The notes under the pieces: model-generated
What the model was told of the DNA's origin: nothing
Databases searched by the model: none
The model's input: only the letters and a program-made list of their open reading frames with translations
Program-made: the position numbers and the translations under genes
Shown: positions 3,500 to 49,330 of the stretch, piece by piece
Numbering within the stretch: the stretch's first letter is position 1
Layout: each line of letters begins with the position of its first letter
Origin: Escherichia phage fKMPT1
Length of the DNA: 64,000 bases
Sequence record: PP620640
Reading direction: 5' to 3' (one strand)

Positions 3500-3883
3500 T
3501 CAAATACCTGTGCAGCTTCTGTTTTCTAAGAAATACTCAACACCATACATAGCTTTTTGCATCAAATCTTCTTTAAACTGGATGCGATGGTTGAGCATAG
3601 CCTGTACATCAATATCATCATGGTGCTTTTCTTTAATATTTGCAGATTGCAGGAAATACTCTCCAAGAACACGATACTGGTAGTCAGTTACCTTATCAGT
3701 CATCTCTGTCAAAGACTCTTCAGAGATTGGTTTAAGTAGCTCACCTTTAGATAGCGCAACACCTTTTACAATCTGGCAAGTGTCTTCTGGAACACCTGAT
3801 AAGTCCACATTTGGAAGTTCTGTTGCATTGACTGGTAAATTCATTGCCATAACCATTGCAGCAGCTAATAAAATCTTTTTCAT
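3500..3883 (-). CDS. secreted/periplasmic small protein
   Basis: N-terminal signal peptide MKKILLAAAMVMAMNLPVNA. Confidence 0.55.
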   Translation of the reverse strand: MKKILLAAAMVMAMNLPVNATELPNVDLSGVPEDTCQIVKGVALSKGELLKPISEESLTEMTDKVTDYQYRVLGEYFLQSANIKEKHHDDIDVQAMLNHRIQFKEDLMQKAMYGVEYFLENRSCTGI

Positions 3884-4468
3884 AATGACCTCAAAGTTAT
3901 ATTAAATTTTGTATTACATTGAGTATAAAAATAAGCTATAACACCTGACTTGTCAACAGATTTTATAGCTTATTTGGCAGATTTTTTATAAGGCTACTGC
4001 CATCCTTCCATACCACACCAAACCACACCTTACCTCACACCACCACACCCAACCGAGCCTGACCTTATTAAAAGACCCTCTTAAAGACCTTTTAAAAAGG
4101 TAAGTCTCATTTTAATGTAGTTGAGACTAACTACCCATACTTTACCGGACCTTACTGGACCATACCTAACACCACCGAACCAAACCATACACCACCGAAC
4201 CGTACCATACCAGACATCACTTAAAAACCCTCTTAGAAAGACTCTTAAGTGATGCTGGTGAGTACCCGTTGGTTTATGCTGCTCAGTATACTCACCAAAT
4301 TTTCTATGTCAACAACTTTTATAAAAAAGTTCTGATAGCTATATGCGTCACGAAACAAAAGATTGTAAACAAGACACCCATTGCAAAAGATGTGTCCAAA
4401 AGCTTACTTGCAACGTATGACAATACAAAGACAACCAGTATAAACAAAATGACTGTACTGAACATAGT

Positions 4469-5569
4469 TTACTCATAATCCCTAATAACTAGCCCAACAG
4501 GAAACTGTAAAGACCCCTTACGAGTCATCTTCTGGAACTGAACCGTTAAAGGTTTCCCGATAAACTCTTCAGGATGCTCAGCAAGATACTGTTTCTTCTC
4601 ATGAGTAGTCTTCCATGAGACATCTACAAAGACGTTAGGAAGCGTCTCTACAACGAACTTGCCATGACCACGTTTATCGGTCTTTACACCAGTTACTTTA
4701 AACTCTTCAGTGTGCATCTTCTTGTGCTTAATCAAGAAGTATGAACGGTGACAACACTCATAGAAGGAGTCTTCAGAAATTGAACGGTACATTGCACCTT
4801 CAAACTTAGCTTCAACCCACTTATCATGGGCTTCATCAAACTCTTCCCAAGAGTTAACACGACGAGATTTAACAGGGACAACTTTACAGCCATCTCTAAA
4901 GTCATTCAATGGTGAAGTCTCAATAATATCTCTACGCTCAGGCCACGTCTTAGTACTGTCACAGATATCATACCAGTAGAACTGGAGTAGATGTCGGTCT
5001 GGATTGTCAGCATTCTTAATCATAGACACAATGTCTTCTAAGTCCCAACCATGAGCATAAATCTCGCCATCAAAGTCTTTAACTTGCGGATGTAATTTAA
5101 GCAACAAAAGTAAATCTGGGATTAGTTCTGCTGGAACGTTGTAAACAGTATTCTCACGAGAATAAGCCGTGAAGCTAACTGAATCAGCATCTCTTGAAAT
5201 TCTACAACGAACACCATCAAGTTTTGGTTGAGCATCAGCAGGGAATATCAAATACTTTGCATGACTAACCTTTGCAGCATCATGCGCAAGCTGTACACCT
5301 ACCTTCTCAGTATTCTGTGCAGACTCTTTTGTGTAAGCATAACCTTTGCGGTCAACCTGCTTTTTATACTTAGCAGCAACTTCAAAGAGAGCTTGCTGTT
5401 CAGCGTTACGCTCATTCTTTTTACCGATGTTTTTAGGTTCTGCTGTATACTCTTCAAACATCATCTTGCCATTCTCTTTACCGTAGGTTGTAATAACTTT
5501 GTCGCCTACAGCAACACATGACCAGACGTTGAAGGAGCCATCTTTATTTTGTTTGTATAGAATTGTCAT
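4469..5569 (-). CDS. ATP-dependent DNA ligase
   Basis: 366 aa; adenylation motif I KLDGVR. Confidence 0.8.
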   Translation of the reverse strand: MTILYKQNKDGSFNVWSCVAVGDKVITTYGKENGKMMFEEYTAEPKNIGKKNERNAEQQALFEVAAKYKKQVDRKGYAYTKESAQNTEKVGVQLAHDAAKVSHAKYLIFPADAQPKLDGVRCRISRDADSVSFTAYSRENTVYNVPAELIPDLLLLLKLHPQVKDFDGEIYAHGWDLEDIVSMIKNADNPDRHLLQFYWYDICDSTKTWPERRDIIETSPLNDFRDGCKVVPVKSRRVNSWEEFDEAHDKWVEAKFEGAMYRSISEDSFYECCHRSYFLIKHKKMHTEEFKVTGVKTDKRGHGKFVVETLPNVFVDVSWKTTHEKKQYLAEHPEEFIGKPLTVQFQKMTRKGSLQFPVGLVIRDYE

Positions 5570-5772
5570 TTTCTCTTACCACCAATTTCTACGTCAATAA
5601 CTTGAATATCACCAGCATCATCAAACTTGTGAATGATGCTTTTCACAGTGTAAGTCCAACCCTCGATGCGAACCAATTCACCTTCTCGTGGAACTATTGG
5701 GTTACGTTGAGCTACCGTTGTAGTGGAGTGAACAACATCATAACAATAGATATAGTTTACTAGGACTTCCAT
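5566..5772 (-). CDS. hypothetical protein
   Basis: 68-aa ORF. Confidence 0.45.
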   Translation of the reverse strand: MEVLVNYIYCYDVVHSTTTVAQRNPIVPREGELVRIEGWTYTVKSIIHKFDDAGDIQVIDVEIGGKRK

Positions 5773-6976: not shown

Positions 6977-7509
6977 GTTTTACCTACCTTACCAGTACCC
7001 GTGACAAGTGTCTTACTCTTTAATCCAAGATTTTTTGATGCTTGACCATACATTCTATCAATAATCTCCTTAACATCTGGTACAGCTTTTGTTGGAACCT
7101 CTAAAGAAACTTCGTCGTGGTAACTACAGACCCATCTAGCACCAATAGCTGGTTTCCTACCATTTAGAACTGTAAGTTTTCGCTCTGTTAACTCTCTATT
7201 AGCCAAGTTAATCCCCTCATTCTGTACCTGCGCCTCACTACCCATGAGTGTGAAATTCAATAACTTATGTGGAGATTTACACCATAACCACGCTCCAGCG
7301 ACTTTGATATAACCACCTTTGGCAATTGCAGAAGTTTTTCCAAAAACCTCTTCAAGTGCTTTCTTAGTTGCTTTGAAGTCTTCCTCTAACCTATCAAGCA
7401 GCTTTTTAATCTTAGGTAGACGTACAAAGTAAGTTTGTTTAGTCAATGCACCTTCTTCCGTAGATGATGCCTTGATAGTTTTTGCAAACTTCTCGTCTCC
7501 AGCACCGAA
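6958..7509 (-). CDS. DNA polymerase (family A), exon 2 / C-terminal segment
   Basis: Begins FGAGDEK (motif B continuation, compare T7 YGAGDEK), contains motif C YHDEV; track ORF starts at a TTG so no obvious independent start. Confidence 0.8.
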   Translation of the reverse strand, partial: FGAGDEKFAKTIKASSTEEGALTKQTYFVRLPKIKKLLDRLEEDFKATKKALEEVFGKTSAIAKGGYIKVAGAWLWCKSPHKLLNFTLMGSEAQVQNEGINLANRELTERKLTVLNGRKPAIGARWVCSYHDEVSLEVPTKAVPDVKEIIDRMYGQASKNLGLKSKTLVTGTGKVGKTWYAVH

Positions 7510-7785
7510 CAATACATCTGGTCAATACACTCGCAAGGTGTACCAGTTCTCTTATGAACTTCTCCGCATTTCTACGGAGTGTCGGACTATATCACGTAGC
7601 AGGATGCTACCGTTGCACTTGGGAATGGTCATTAGCTTACCACCCTACTCTACTCAGTTCATACGTTAAGTATGCTTTTCGATAGTCTCTGAACGTTCCT
7701 CTCAAGAGGCTTCGCTGCTGATTACCGTATCTTCTCAGACTTAGGCTTCCAGCAATTCACAACGTTTTACATGCGCCACTGACGC
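7510..7785 (-). ncRNA. putative group I intron interrupting DNA polymerase motif B
   Basis: 276-nt ORF-less insertion between ...KNGIY and FGAGDEK...; upstream exon ends in U, intron ends in G; GUAAA near intron 5' end could pair with exon UUUAU (P1). Confidence 0.45.
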
Positions 7786-47599: not shown

Positions 47600-49330
47600 C
47601 AACGCAACGGGGCTAAATAGCCCCAGATACCTTTACAGCCCCTTTATATTGATTCGATAGAATCTATCTCATAGGGGCTTTTTTACATCTCTGTAATAGC
47701 CTCTATACAATCCCTTTCCTTCCCTTTCCAGAATCTATCCCACTAATTCGATAGAATCTTACCAGACCTTAAAAGTAATAACTCTATAGCTTACTCTATA
47801 GCCCCTTATCAAATCAACTTAAATAAAAGCCCATAACCCGAAAGGGAAGGGCAACCACTAAAACGCTATATAAAGCTCTATAACAGCCTTATCAACCTAA
47901 CTTAAGGGATTGCATTACCTCACCCTTAAAAGCCCTTTATAAAGCTTTCTAGGGGGGCTTAAAAGAGTCTTAAAAGAATCTTATAAGGGTGTAAGCTTTA
48001 TCATCTCGTTAGCTATCCTGTGAATAACTAAAAAGGGCTTGTTAGTGTCTTAAAAGTATGTTATAGGGGGCTGTGAAGTTACTTCAAAGTTACGTGAAAG
48101 AGGCTATAAAGTTACGTAAATGCTAGCCCCCTTAACATTTTCTTAACAATTTCTTAACAATCCCTACATAGTTATGCTTGTTAGCAACTTGTTAGCCCCT
48201 TGTTAAATCTCTGTTAAGACCACGTAAAAGCCTTGTAAGAGTCTTTGGCATAGCCTTTAAAGCCCCTGTAAAGCTCTATAAAGAGGTGTCTGTATAGTTG
48301 GGGTGTAATTACTAGGAAGAGGCTTAAAAGAGCTTACAAGGGGCTATAGAGAGCTTTTAAGAGGTATGTTTAAAGAATCACTAAGAGGGAAAGGGAACTA
48401 TAGACCAAGAGATAGTGACCATGTTAATAGCTTGTTAAAAAGATTAAACACTTGTTAGGAATTTGTTAATTATCTTAACAAAATAACTCTTAAAAATTAA
48501 CTTGTTAGCTCTTATTAGTCATCTGTTAAGACTCTGTAAAGCCTATGTATCAACTGTTAAGAAACTGTTACCCTCTTGTTAAAACTGTTAAGAAACTGTT
48601 AAGACCTCTGAAGAGATGTTAAAAAGGTGTAGTATCTGTTAAGAGATTGTTAAGGATATTTTAAAATTCTGCAAAGGGGATGTTACAGGGATGTTAAGGG
48701 CTACCAAGCAGATATACATCTTCTACAGATATTTTTCAGTTCCTTCAAAGACCCTAAAAAATGACTTGATAGTCCTATTTTATAAAAATTTTAAAATTCT
48801 GAATAATTACCTAGACAGTCTTCTAAAAATACAGGCATAAACAGGCTTATAAGATACCTTGTTAGTACCGTGTTAGACCTTGTGAGATAAGGCCTGTAAA
48901 GATATTCCTGTTAAGTTTGTTAAAACAGTCTATATAGAGGCTTAGTAATACCTAGTGAACACCTATAGAGGGTAACATATCTAACCTAGAGATTAAGAGG
49001 TGTATAGGAGCTTCTAAGAGGGTGTAGAGAGATGGTTAAGGTGATTGTATAGGCTGTTAAGAAGGCTTGTTAGAGGGCTTGTTAGAGGGCTATTTAGAAG
49101 GTTTATACAGAGGAGCTATTAAGACCACTAGATAGAGACTAAGATACTATATAGTACTATATAACTATATATATAGAGAGTAAGCTTAAGAAGGATGTTA
49201 AGAAGGATAGATATTTTATTCACATATGATGGTGACCCAGAGGTTGGGACAACCGATAAAATTTTATAAAAATTATAAATTTCGTAAAATTTACTCAATA
49301 AAAAGCCCCCAATTAAGGAGGCTCTTAAGA
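47600..49330. repeat. ORF-free repeat-dense region (TGTTAAG / CTTGTTAG motif clusters)
   Basis: no ORF of 60 aa or more on either strand for 1.7 kb; dozens of short direct repeats; lies between convergent transcription units. Confidence 0.7.

What the first reader, a model, noticed from the sequence alone, without database searches (positions are those of the whole stretch)
3884..4468. G-depleted C/A-rich non-coding region with nested inverted repeats
About 580 bp without a credible ORF between two minus-strand genes. The plus strand is almost devoid of G for over 200 nt (ccacaccaaaccacacc..., accaccgaacc x2). It carries clear inverted repeats: agtctca...tgagact (about 4102-4128) and catcacttaa...ttaagtgatg (about 4212-4250). 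Strand-asymmetric composition plus palindromes suggests a regulatory or replication-related site or a structured leader.
Basis: seen in the sequence. Interest (0 to 1): 0.45.

Follow-up and report, generated by a model that had tools for sequence, protein, structure and literature searches.

The report
Orphan VIPR guide RNA genes
The C/A-rich "non-coding" stretch encodes, on the opposite strand, two guide RNAs (vrRNAs) of the phage VIPR RNA-guided DNA-silencing system described in 2026. This Felix O1-like phage has no detectable gene for the Vipr protein that uses them.

Summary
Window 3976-4254 holds two modules. Each is a hairpin, then a run of GGYNN pentamers (16 and 11 units), then a conserved 3' pseudoknot tail. 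They lie between two sigma70-type promoters.

The fixed parts match the vrRNA locus of Escherichia phage SUSP1, the experimental model of the VIPR system (bioRxiv 10.64898/2026.04.26.720920 and .720927). There, one RAMP-like Vipr protomer binds each GGY, and the NN dinucleotides read double-stranded DNA while skipping every third base.

They are not replication or operator sites.

The new point is that this phage (100% identical over the 2.1 kb compared to Salmonella phage fBSPA4) has no detectable vipr or vap gene. Roughly half of Felixounavirus records lack vipr, Felix O1 (FO1a) among them. The orphan guides are nevertheless intact. Both match genes of an E. coli satellite element at 82-84% of NN positions, with the skipped base on the codon wobble position. 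Guides from vipr-less phages match as often as guides from vipr-carrying relatives.

Most likely the vipr-vap cassette was lost by recombination between repeated modules. Action in trans is not excluded. This is a known kind of element in an undescribed orphan configuration.

The parts
4285..4312 (-). Promoter P1 (TTGACA-16 nt-TATACT). It would start transcription near 4278, reading into the two vrRNA modules.
   Evidence: Consensus scan, 11 of 12 matches. The same sequence sits upstream of SUSP1 vrRNA1 and in FO1a. Function as a promoter is inferred, not shown.
4256..4297 (.). 9-bp inverted repeat TGGTGAGTA/TACTCACCA bracketing the -10 hexamer and the start site of P1. Possibly an operator.
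   Evidence: the repeat finder pair I7. Conserved in SUSP1, wV8, humlepung and FO1a. Role not tested.
4215..4254 (-).
   Evidence: the repeat finder pair I4. Conserved in all Felixounavirus loci and in SUSP1. Role unknown: it could be a 5' handle, a processing signal or a boundary.
4137..4216 (-). vrRNA-B repeat tract of 16 pentamers (TGTCT GGTAT GGTAC GGTTC GGTGG TGTAT GGTTT GGTTC GGTGG TGTTA GGTAT GGTCC AGTAA GGTCC GGTAA AGTAT). The NN guide reads CT AT AC TC GG AT TT TC GG TA AT CC AA CC AA AT.
   Evidence: Homologous position and flanks as SUSP1 vrRNAs. Predicted target matches 27 of 32 NN bases in satellite locus L156.
4099..4136 (-). vrRNA-B 3' tail, GGGTAGTTAGTCTCAACTACATTAAAATGAGACTTACC. 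It forms an H-type pseudoknot with stem 1 GTAG/CTAC and stem 2 AGTCTCA/TGAGACT. A T5 run follows at 4094-4098.
   Evidence: Alignment A1 of 17 tail variants: 90.9% of cells paired, 9 of 11 pairs with compensatory changes, slid controls at most 37%. One base differs from the SUSP1 vrRNA2/3 tails. This is part of the 58-bp repeat annotated 'DR_4' in phage wV8.
4068..4095 (-). Leader hairpin 2 (TTAAAAG / CTTTTAA stem, loop GTCTTTAAGAGGGT), 5' of tract A. Its loop is homologous to the loop of leader hairpin 1.
   Evidence: Read from the sequence. Direct repeat D3 links the two loops. Conserved in relatives.
4010..4064 (-). vrRNA-A repeat tract of 11 pentamers (GGTCA GGCTC GGTTG GGTGT GGTGG TGTGA GGTAA GGTGT GGTTT GGTGT GGTAT). 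The NN guide reads CA TC TG GT GG GA AA GT TT GT AT.
   Evidence: Predicted target matches 18 of 22 NN bases in the Dam methyltransferase gene of satellite locus L177.
3976..4009 (-). vrRNA-A 3' tail, GGAAGGATGGCAGTAGCCTTATAAAAAATCTGCC. It has the same pseudoknot architecture, with stem 1 AAGG/CCTT and stem 2 GGCAG/CTGCC.
   Evidence: Identical to the tail of the last SUSP1 vrRNA. Covaries with the other tail types.
3928..3956 (-). Promoter P2 (TTGACA-17 nt-TATTTT) for the downstream 127-aa gene. A 19-nt inverted repeat flanks it (3929-3947 / 3957-3975).
   Evidence: pair I2. Conserved in SUSP1 and FO1a.
4319..4465 (-). 48-codon hydrophobic ORF (MFSTVILFILVVFVLSYVASKLLDTSFAMGVLFTIFCFVTHIAIRTFL). 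It lies inside the finding's coordinates but is not part of the vrRNA element.
   Evidence: Annotated as orf107 (48 aa) in UAB_Phi87. Absent from FO1a and replaced by other sequence in SUSP1.

Best explanation
Window 3976-4254 (minus strand) carries two vrRNA genes of a type II (SUSP1-clade) VIPR system.

Anatomy: each gene is a run of GGY-NN pentamers followed by an invariant pseudoknot tail. Both probably come from promoter P1 as one transcript that is terminated or processed into RNAs of about 90-120 nt.

Known mechanism in relatives (from the two preprints): one Vipr (Cas7-like RAMP) protomer binds each repeat and sequesters G-G-Y. This presents the NN dinucleotides, which pair with double-stranded DNA while skipping every third base. 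The result is transcriptional silencing of a competing satellite element.

This phage: no vipr or vap gene is detectable, so the two guides are orphans. The most likely history is loss of the vipr-vap cassette, together with two further vrRNA modules, by homologous recombination between the repeated tail-plus-leader units (the 58-bp 'DR_4' of wV8). That leaves promoter-leader-tract-tail-leader-tract-tail.

The guides keep every feature of working guides and are aimed at genes of an E. coli satellite. On their own they should be inert. They could act only if a matching Vipr is supplied in the same cell.

Shown here: the anatomy, homology and synteny with SUSP1, absence of vipr/vap, tail covariation, and target matches. 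Inferred: transcription and processing, the deletion route, and the present lack of activity.

The confidence of 0.9 is for the identity as orphan vrRNA genes. My confidence that they are currently inactive is only about 0.55.
For: 1. Repeat anatomy. The tracts have 16 and 11 in-register units. Across 65 distinct homologous tracts delimited by anchors, Y is a pyrimidine in 99% of units, G2 is G in 97%, G1 is G in 81%, and the NN positions are near-uniform. Length between anchors fell in the expected residue class mod 5 in 52 of 53 tracts.

2. Match to the published definition. vrRNAs are 9-16 YNNGG repeats plus an invariant 3' tail, with a pseudoknot in the SUSP1 clade. One Vipr protomer binds per repeat, the Y pocket excludes purines, and G2 is held by R138/W178.

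3. Direct homology and synteny. SUSP1 has ligase, promoter+vrRNA1, agp039, agp038, three vrRNAs, then the homologue of the 127-aa gene. Its promoter and last-vrRNA tail are identical to the window's and its leader is near-identical. The vrRNA2/3 tail differs by one base.

5. Tail pseudoknot covariation.

6. Absence of vipr and vap. tblastn over the window and the other 23 kb of the genome gives best E = 0.23. A 26-sequence profile HMM gives best E = 0.064.

7. Targets. vrRNA-B matches 27 of 32 NN bases and vrRNA-A 18 of 22, in satellite genes, with the skipped base at codon position 3. As a control, 39 of 71 guides reach 80% or more at a 1-nt skip. None of the 71 does so at skips 0, 2 or 3, and in the 58-guide run none does with shuffled unit order.

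8. Architecture series consistent with recombinational deletion: four modules plus vipr-vap (wV8, SUSP1), two modules without them (this window, humlepung), and one module (FO1a).
Against: No expression data exist for this phage, so promoter use, RNA ends and processing are inferred from SUSP1.

The orphan guides show no decay. GGY conformity equals that of vipr-carrying genomes. They match satellites as often as well: 10 of 19 against 29 of 52. That fits a very recent loss, but it also fits continued use, which would contradict 'inert'.

The vrRNA-A match is only marginally beyond chance: about 0.03 expected in the 129 kb searched, before the frame criterion.

The targets found are in E. coli elements, whereas the matching GenBank phage was isolated on Salmonella.

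The direction of the event, deletion versus cassette insertion, was not resolved phylogenetically.
Confidence: 0.9

Rival explanations
1. The orphan vrRNAs are still functional in trans. They are maintained by selection because a compatible Vipr is often present in the same cell, for example during co-infection with a vipr-carrying Felixounavirus. Alternatively they serve as a reservoir of guides that recombination returns to vipr-carrying genomes.
For: There is no sign of decay: GGY conformity is 0.98/0.83/0.96 in vipr-less genomes against 0.99/0.81/0.97 in vipr-carrying ones. Promoter, leader hairpins and tails are identical or nearly identical to SUSP1's. Target matching is as frequent as for vipr-linked guides, 10 of 19 against 29 of 52. 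There is a precedent for guides used in trans: satellite L181 carries a 12-unit vrRNA with a helper-type tail but no vipr, and the preprint reports satellites with their own vrRNAs. Related guides occur in both vipr-less and vipr-carrying genomes. L007 shares one with L013/L022, and L017 with L004/L013, which shows ongoing exchange.
Against: Co-infection by two related virulent phages may be too rare to maintain the locus. No Vipr more than 50% identical turned up outside phage or unnamed metagenomic sequences, and none is present in the seven satellites. The same data fit recent, repeated loss.
Confidence: 0.3
2. The phage does encode a Vipr-like effector, but one too divergent, or of another fold, to be detected by sequence. 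In that case the locus is a complete system with a relocated protein gene.
For: The preprint describes seven VIPR types with little sequence similarity, found by structure rather than sequence. Many ORFs of this phage are uncharacterised.
Against: The tails and leaders belong to the SUSP1 clade, whose Vipr is 97-100% conserved among relatives. A partner protein would therefore be expected to be close. tblastn and a 26-member profile HMM spanning 20-50% identity found nothing. The syntenic slot where vipr-vap sits in relatives is empty.
Confidence: 0.05
3. The orphan vrRNAs act as decoys. They soak up the Vipr of a competing phage, or redirect it to targets that benefit the vipr-less phage (an 'anti-VIPR' or hijacking role).
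For: The tails are the same types as those of vipr-carrying relatives, so a competitor's Vipr should load them. They sit behind a strong consensus promoter.
Against: This is purely speculative. The guides point at the same satellite family as the guides of vipr-carrying phages, not at rival phages. No self or rival Felixounavirus target was found in the sequences held.
Confidence: 0.05
4. One reading: a DNA-level regulatory or replication element (an origin, or a protein-binding palindrome cluster), or a G-quadruplex or R-loop-forming leader.
For: The G-rich non-template strand lies downstream of a promoter, next to replication genes (ligase, DNA polymerase). There are several palindromes. GG-N3 spacing could in principle form two-tetrad quadruplexes.
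Against: The conservation pattern is invariant G2, 99% pyrimidine at the next base, a tolerated loss of G1 in 19% of units, and free NN. It matches the Vipr contacts seen by cryo-EM, not the requirements of a quadruplex or an R-loop. The NN dinucleotides encode matches to foreign genes only under the 1-nt skip rule. Homologous RNAs are expressed and co-purify with Vipr in SUSP1. The palindromes covary as RNA stems.
Confidence: 0.03

Closest known systems
vrRNAs of the type II VIPR system of Escherichia phage SUSP1 (bioRxiv 10.64898/2026.04.26.720920; structures in 10.64898/2026.04.26.720927)
   Same: Same genomic slot, between the DNA ligase gene and the 127-aa gene. Same promoter, near-identical leader hairpin, GGY/NN pentamer tracts of 11-16 units, and the same tail types (one base differs in the vrRNA2/3-type tail). 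Same satellite family as predicted target, under the 1-nt skip rule with wobble skipping.
   Different: No vipr (RAMP) gene and no vap gene are detectable anywhere in the phage. It has two modules instead of four. The NN guide sequences are unique to this phage among those examined. The preprint's pipeline started from Vipr proteins and does not mention vipr-less loci (no occurrence of 'orphan').
Orphan CRISPR arrays and phage- or satellite-borne mini-arrays that rely on Cas proteins encoded elsewhere
   Same: Guide-RNA genes without the cognate effector in the same genome. Possible use in trans, or a remnant after loss of the effector cassette.
   Different: There are no CRISPR repeats or spacers. 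Targeting information is interleaved (NN every 5 nt) rather than contiguous, and the effector is a single small RAMP filament.
TRAP (trp RNA-binding attenuation protein) binding sites: 9-11 (G/U)AG triplets separated by 2-3 nt spacers (from my own knowledge)
   Same: Conserved triplets at about 5-nt spacing with free spacers, read by one protein subunit per repeat on single-stranded RNA. This analogy pointed to a one-protomer-per-pentamer reader before the literature was found.
   Different: TRAP is an 11-mer ring that regulates attenuation and its spacers carry no information. Here the spacers are the guide, the protein is a RAMP helical filament, and the output is DNA binding.
PeSL (promoter-early stem-loop) cassette boundaries of T4-type phages (from my own knowledge: Arbiol et al. 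2010)
   Same: Repeated promoter and stem-loop modules flank a small mobile gene cassette and probably mediate its gain and loss by recombination. Here the vipr-vap cassette lies between DR_4 repeats.
   Different: The repeated modules here are themselves functional RNA genes. There is no sequence relationship.

Membership tests
VIPR system / vrRNA (type II, SUSP1 clade) | A tract of 9-16 tandem YNNGG (GGY-NN) pentamers, with GGY conserved and NN hypervariable | tested here: met
   16 and 11 in-register units. In 65 homologous tracts, Y is a pyrimidine in 99% of units, G2 is G in 97%, G1 in 81%, and NN is near-uniform. Tract length differs by whole 5-nt units in 52 of 53 tracts.
VIPR system / vrRNA (type II, SUSP1 clade) | An invariant 3' tail with conserved secondary structure (a pseudoknot in the SUSP1 clade) | tested here: met
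   Tails at 4099-4136 and 3976-4009. The A tail is identical to that of the last SUSP1 vrRNA, and the B tail differs by one base from SUSP1 vrRNA2/3. The H-type pseudoknot has 90.9% of cells paired and 9 of 11 pairs with compensatory changes.
VIPR system / vrRNA (type II, SUSP1 clade) | Sequence homology and synteny with an experimentally characterised vrRNA locus | tested here: met
   The SUSP1 locus NC_028808 27.5-29.5 kb has the same flanking genes, promoter and tails, with a near-identical leader.
VIPR system / vrRNA (type II, SUSP1 clade) | A vipr gene (about 20 kDa RAMP homologue) next to the vrRNAs | tested here: not met
VIPR system / vrRNA (type II, SUSP1 clade) | A vap accessory gene (vap1 in SUSP1) | tested here: not met
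   tblastn with wV8 gp095 (99.3% identical to SUSP1 agp038) gives best E = 0.33 in the window and 3.2 in the rest of the genome.
VIPR system / vrRNA (type II, SUSP1 clade) | The NN dinucleotides specify natural targets under the 1-nt skip rule (at least 80% NN match), mostly in coding sequence with the skip on the wobble base | tested here: met
   vrRNA-B matches 27/32 (84%) and vrRNA-A 18/22 (82%) in satellite genes, both with the skipped base at codon position 3. Control: 39 of 71 guides reach 80% at skip 1. None of the 71 does at skips 0, 2 or 3, and none of 58 does with shuffled order. 25 of 29 ORF hits are in the wobble frame. The vrRNA-A match alone is only marginally significant.
VIPR system / vrRNA (type II, SUSP1 clade) | Expressed as small RNAs of about 100 nt that co-purify with Vipr and direct transcriptional silencing | not testable with these tools
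   Shown for SUSP1 in the preprint. For this phage it needs sRNA-seq, pull-down and reporter assays.
Any Rfam RNA family | A covariance-model match at or above the gathering score | tested here: not met
   Only chance-level matches, E about 9. Rfam 15 has no matching family.
G-quadruplex-forming element | Four or more G-runs whose loops are free to vary, with selection acting on the G-runs only | tested here: not met
   GG runs are present, but the first G is replaced in 19% of units. The base after GG is constrained to a pyrimidine in 99% of units. A quadruplex does not require that; the Vipr Y pocket does.

The most novel reading that the evidence does not exclude
Effector-less vrRNA loci are a maintained, functional state rather than debris. 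About half of Felixounavirus records, including Felix O1 (FO1a), carry only guides. These guides would be loaded onto Vipr supplied by a co-infecting relative, as the satellites' own vrRNAs appear to be. Guides and effector would then form a shared 'public good' that separate genomes exploit, with the repeated tail and leader modules acting as recombination handles that let the vipr-vap cassette and the guides move independently.
Probability: 0.25. Interest if true: 0.7.

Novelty: new member of a known kind. Interest (0 to 1): 0.5.

Why it matters
VIPR was described only in April-June 2026, as an RNA-guided DNA-recognition system with a non-contiguous code and a proposed ancestor of CRISPR RAMP effectors. 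This finding places two such guide genes in a Felix O1-type phage.

Starting from the DNA pattern alone, I reproduced the main published claims:
- the GGY/NN code;
- the tail pseudoknot;
- the RAMP fold of Vipr;
- the 1-nt skip rule with wobble skipping;
- convergence of targets on an E. coli satellite.

The work also adds observations not stated in the preprint.
- Many Felixounaviruses, Felix O1 (FO1a) among them, carry intact, target-matched vrRNAs but no vipr or vap.
- vipr presence is strongly host-biased: 77 of 119 Escherichia phage records against 17 of 77 Salmonella phage records.
- The repeated modules flanking vipr-vap offer a simple route for loss and gain of the cassette.

This matters for three reasons: annotation, since these regions are currently blank or labelled 'repeat_region'; understanding how guide and effector co-evolve; and choosing therapeutic Felix O1-like phages, whose interactions with satellites may differ.

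Tried and rejected
Ideas considered before the literature match, all dropped:
- A TRAP-like ring-protein binding site. It was a useful analogy, but it is not the family.
- An R-loop or replication origin resembling ColE1, T4 oriF or immunoglobulin switch regions.
- A two-tetrad G-quadruplex.
- A cluster of primase recognition sites (T7-type GGGTC/TGGTC).
- A series of RNA polymerase elemental pause sites (G-10, T-3, G+1 fit a period of 5).
- A rut site on the plus strand.
- A RecA-preferred GT-rich recombination hotspot or a Chi-like sequence.
- A boxA-like motif in the hairpin loops.
- SD-like 'ribosome sponge' repeats.
- Short peptides encoded by the modules. The reading frames are inconsistent between modules in L059.

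All were rejected because the GGY/NN pattern, the homology to SUSP1 and the target matches explain the data fully.

Searches that gave nothing:
- Rfam.
- Pfam for Vipr and Vap.
- The Felix O1 and UAB_Phi87 genome papers, which do not mention this element.
- blastn of the whole module against 5,426 E. coli genomes, no match.
- A genome-contig scan with 10 guide units, which returned one chance hit in a Lachnospiraceae MAG.
- IMG/VR scans with vrRNA-A units 1-8 and 4-11 and vrRNA-B units 1-8, which gave only chance-level extensions.
- A self-target search in the phage and in all held loci, which found nothing.
- Supplementary data of the preprint, which are not held.

Full report
**What is in the sequence**

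The window is a Felixounavirus. Positions 3500-5600 are 100% identical to Salmonella phage fBSPA4 (OR711204), and 259 phage records match the region.

The finding lies between a 127-aa minus-strand gene (3500-3883) and the DNA ligase gene (4469-5569). Inside it, 4319-4465 (minus) is a 48-codon hydrophobic ORF that one relative annotates. The truly non-coding part is therefore about 3884-4318.

The plus strand is G-poor in two blocks rather than continuously: 6 G in 77 nt at 3990-4066 and 8 G in 80 nt at 4137-4216.

**The decisive feature: a period of 5**

On the minus strand, which is the strand of all neighbouring genes and of two sigma70-type promoters (4312-4285 and 3956-3928), the two blocks are runs of pentamers.
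- Tract B has 16 units: TGTCT GGTAT GGTAC GGTTC GGTGG TGTAT GGTTT GGTTC GGTGG TGTTA GGTAT GGTCC AGTAA GGTCC GGTAA AGTAT.
- Tract A has 11 units: GGTCA ... GGTAT.

These are the only such runs in the window and in the remaining 23 kb of the matching fBSPA4 genome.

In wV8, humlepung and 20 IMG/VR relatives, the sequences flanking the tracts are nearly invariant. The last two bases of each pentamer differ freely. In 53 distinct tracts, the length between anchors fell in the expected residue class mod 5 in 52 of 53, so tracts differ by whole 5-nt units. With tracts delimited by anchors rather than by pattern:
- the base after GG is a pyrimidine in 99% of units;
- the second G is G in 97% of units;
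- the first G is G in 81% of units;
- the NN positions are near-uniform.

This is the signature of a reader that contacts a triplet every five nucleotides.

**The pattern is widespread**

Besides plain microsatellites, it returned many unrelated viral contigs with clusters of degenerate GGTNN tracts, each followed by a fixed motif. I noted an analogy with TRAP binding sites and considered several DNA-level ideas (listed under tried and rejected) before searching the literature.

**Identification**

A full-text search for pentanucleotide repeats in phages returned a 2026 bioRxiv preprint describing VIPR systems. According to that preprint and a structural companion:
- VIPR systems are phage-encoded and consist of a Vipr protein of about 20 kDa (a RAMP homologue), an accessory Vap protein, and vrRNAs of about 100 nt.
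- vrRNAs are built of 9-16 YNNGG repeats plus an invariant 3' tail, which forms a pseudoknot in the SUSP1 clade.
- One Vipr protomer binds each repeat and sequesters G-G-Y.
- The NN dinucleotides pair with double-stranded DNA while skipping one target base per repeat, usually the codon wobble base. This silences transcription.
- SUSP1-clade guides converge on a satellite phage of E. coli.

The experimental model, Escherichia phage SUSP1, belongs to the same subfamily as this window. I fetched its syntenic region. Its order is ligase, promoter plus vrRNA1, agp039 (195 aa), agp038 (146 aa), three vrRNAs, then the homologue of the 127-aa gene.

The promoter and the GGAAGGATGGCAG... tail are identical to the window's, and the leader hairpin is near-identical. 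The GGGTAGTTAGTCTCA... tail differs by one base. The window's two modules are therefore vrRNA genes of that clade.

**Independent checks of the family's features**

*Tail structure.* Seventeen tail variants align without gaps. An H-type pseudoknot has 90.9% of cells paired and 9 of 11 pairs with compensatory changes. Slid controls reach at most 37%.

*Targets.* An IMG/VR scan with eight central units of vrRNA-B under the 1-nt skip rule gave 22 seeds. One extended to 27 of 32 NN matches. That locus (L156) is a roughly 12-kb island of E. coli. It is usually integrated in yecE and encodes a Dam methylase, an HNH protein, a 236-aa protein annotated 'transposase', a tape measure protein, a baseplate protein and a serine recombinase. 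In other words, it is a satellite. The target gene is present in 376 of 5,426 complete E. coli genomes and is highly variable.

Against seven variants of the island (129 kb):
- 39 of 71 distinct Ounavirinae guides reach at least 80% NN match at a 1-nt skip;
- none of the 71 does so at skips 0, 2 or 3, and in the 58-guide run none does with shuffled unit order;
- 25 of 29 hits inside long ORFs place the skipped base at codon position 3 (binomial 6e-9).

vrRNA-B matches antisense to the 'transposase' ORF, with an expected number of 5e-6 in this search space. vrRNA-A matches 18 of 22 in the Dam methylase gene, with an expected number of 0.03 before the frame criterion. Both are in the wobble frame.

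**The orphan state**

The window has no vipr or vap. tblastn gives best E = 0.23 in the window and 1.1 in the other 23 kb of the genome. A profile HMM built from 26 Vipr homologues of 20-50% identity gives best E = 0.064 against all ORFs.

Relatives show a series of architectures:
- four modules plus vipr-vap (wV8 as 2+2, SUSP1 as 1+3);
- two modules without the genes (this window, humlepung, several Salmonella phages);
- one module (FO1a, that is Felix O1).

In wV8 the cassette is bracketed by two copies of a 58-bp repeat annotated DR_4 since 2009. That repeat is the tail plus the next leader. Recombination between the copies yields exactly the window's arrangement. Recombination between the two leader-1 copies of a SUSP1-like locus yields the Felix O1 arrangement. 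This route is inferred.

About 118 phage records carry a Vipr at least 90% identical, against 259 with the ligase region. By host name the split is 77 of 119 Escherichia phages against 17 of 77 Salmonella phages (Fisher 6e-9). The counts come from two different searches, so the fractions are approximate.

**Are the orphans dead?**

I found no decay.
- GGY conformity is 0.98/0.83/0.96 in vipr-less genomes against 0.99/0.81/0.97 in vipr-carrying ones.
- Promoter, leaders and tails are intact.
- 10 of 19 orphan guides match the satellites, against 29 of 52 vipr-linked guides.
- Some orphan guides are variants of guides found in vipr-carrying genomes, so exchange is recent or ongoing.
- One satellite (L181) carries its own 12-unit vrRNA with a helper-type tail and no vipr. 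This is a precedent for guides that depend on a Vipr encoded elsewhere, as the preprint also implies.

These data do not separate a very recent, recurrent loss from maintained use in trans. I rank loss with present inactivity first, because no source of Vipr other than a co-infecting relative is evident. I give the trans-acting reading about 0.25-0.3.

**Verdict**

The interpretation as a regulatory or replication site or a G-quadruplex is replaced by a specific and now known one: vrRNA guide genes of a VIPR system.

As a kind of element it is already described, so novelty is limited to a new member in an orphan configuration that the preprint does not discuss. Interest is moderate. The class is important and very new. 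The vipr-less state of Felix O1-type phages, its host bias and the recombination-prone architecture are concrete, testable additions.

Noticed in passing
window 47700-49300: A stretch of about 1.5 kb with many short tandem repeats of period 10-14, mostly 11-12 nt (for example TGTTAGAGGGCT x3 at 49055-49091 and CTTAACAATTT x2.8 at 48131-48161). Its composition is strand-asymmetric: C-rich and G-poor at 47700-47769, G-rich and C-poor at 48984-49103. It could be a terminal-repeat, packaging or origin region.
   Followed up: no
L181 4988-5047 (minus strand); E. coli M11 chromosome NZ_CP010206: A satellite island carries its own 12-unit GGYNN tract followed by a tail (GGGTGGATTATCGTAGCCACGTTAAAAATCGAC) resembling the phage vrRNA1 tail. 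No vipr or vap homologue is present in any of the seven satellites examined. Several satellites also have 2-3 kb without annotated genes upstream of their first ORFs.
   Followed up: partly
L059 2200-3400; L047; L045; L055; L068; L074 (IMG/VR contigs): Unrelated viral contigs carry arrays of up to about 14 GGTNN tracts, each followed by a fixed spacer or tail. In L059 that is AAGGAATGGTTTAATGAATTTAATT. In L047 the tracts are separated only by 'GGCTAATG'. In L045 each tract has its own TTGCAA-17-TATAAT promoter. Most have a Vipr homologue nearby. These are probably other VIPR types or array architectures.
   Followed up: partly
window 4319-4465 (minus): A 48-aa, strongly hydrophobic ORF immediately downstream of the ligase gene. 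It is present in some relatives (orf107 of UAB_Phi87), absent from FO1a, and replaced by unrelated sequence in SUSP1.
   Followed up: partly
window 4256-4297 and 3929-3975: Both promoters are bracketed by inverted repeats: TGGTGAGTA/TACTCACCA around the -10 hexamer of P1, and a 19-nt repeat of 89% complementarity around the -35 hexamer of P2. They are conserved in SUSP1 and FO1a and may be operators, perhaps for the nearby 'transcriptional regulator' gene.
   Followed up: no
phage records: vipr presence is host-biased: 77 of 119 records named Escherichia phage against 17 of 77 named Salmonella phage (Fisher 6e-9). A record named 'Staphylococcus phage SA1' (GU169904, 147 kb) contains a 99.5% identical vipr, which looks like a chimeric or contaminated record.
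   Followed up: partly
window 7472-7685 region / fBSPA4 annotation: The DNA polymerase of this phage is annotated as split by an HNH endonuclease gene (ASP4_00042-00044), as in humlepung.
   Followed up: no
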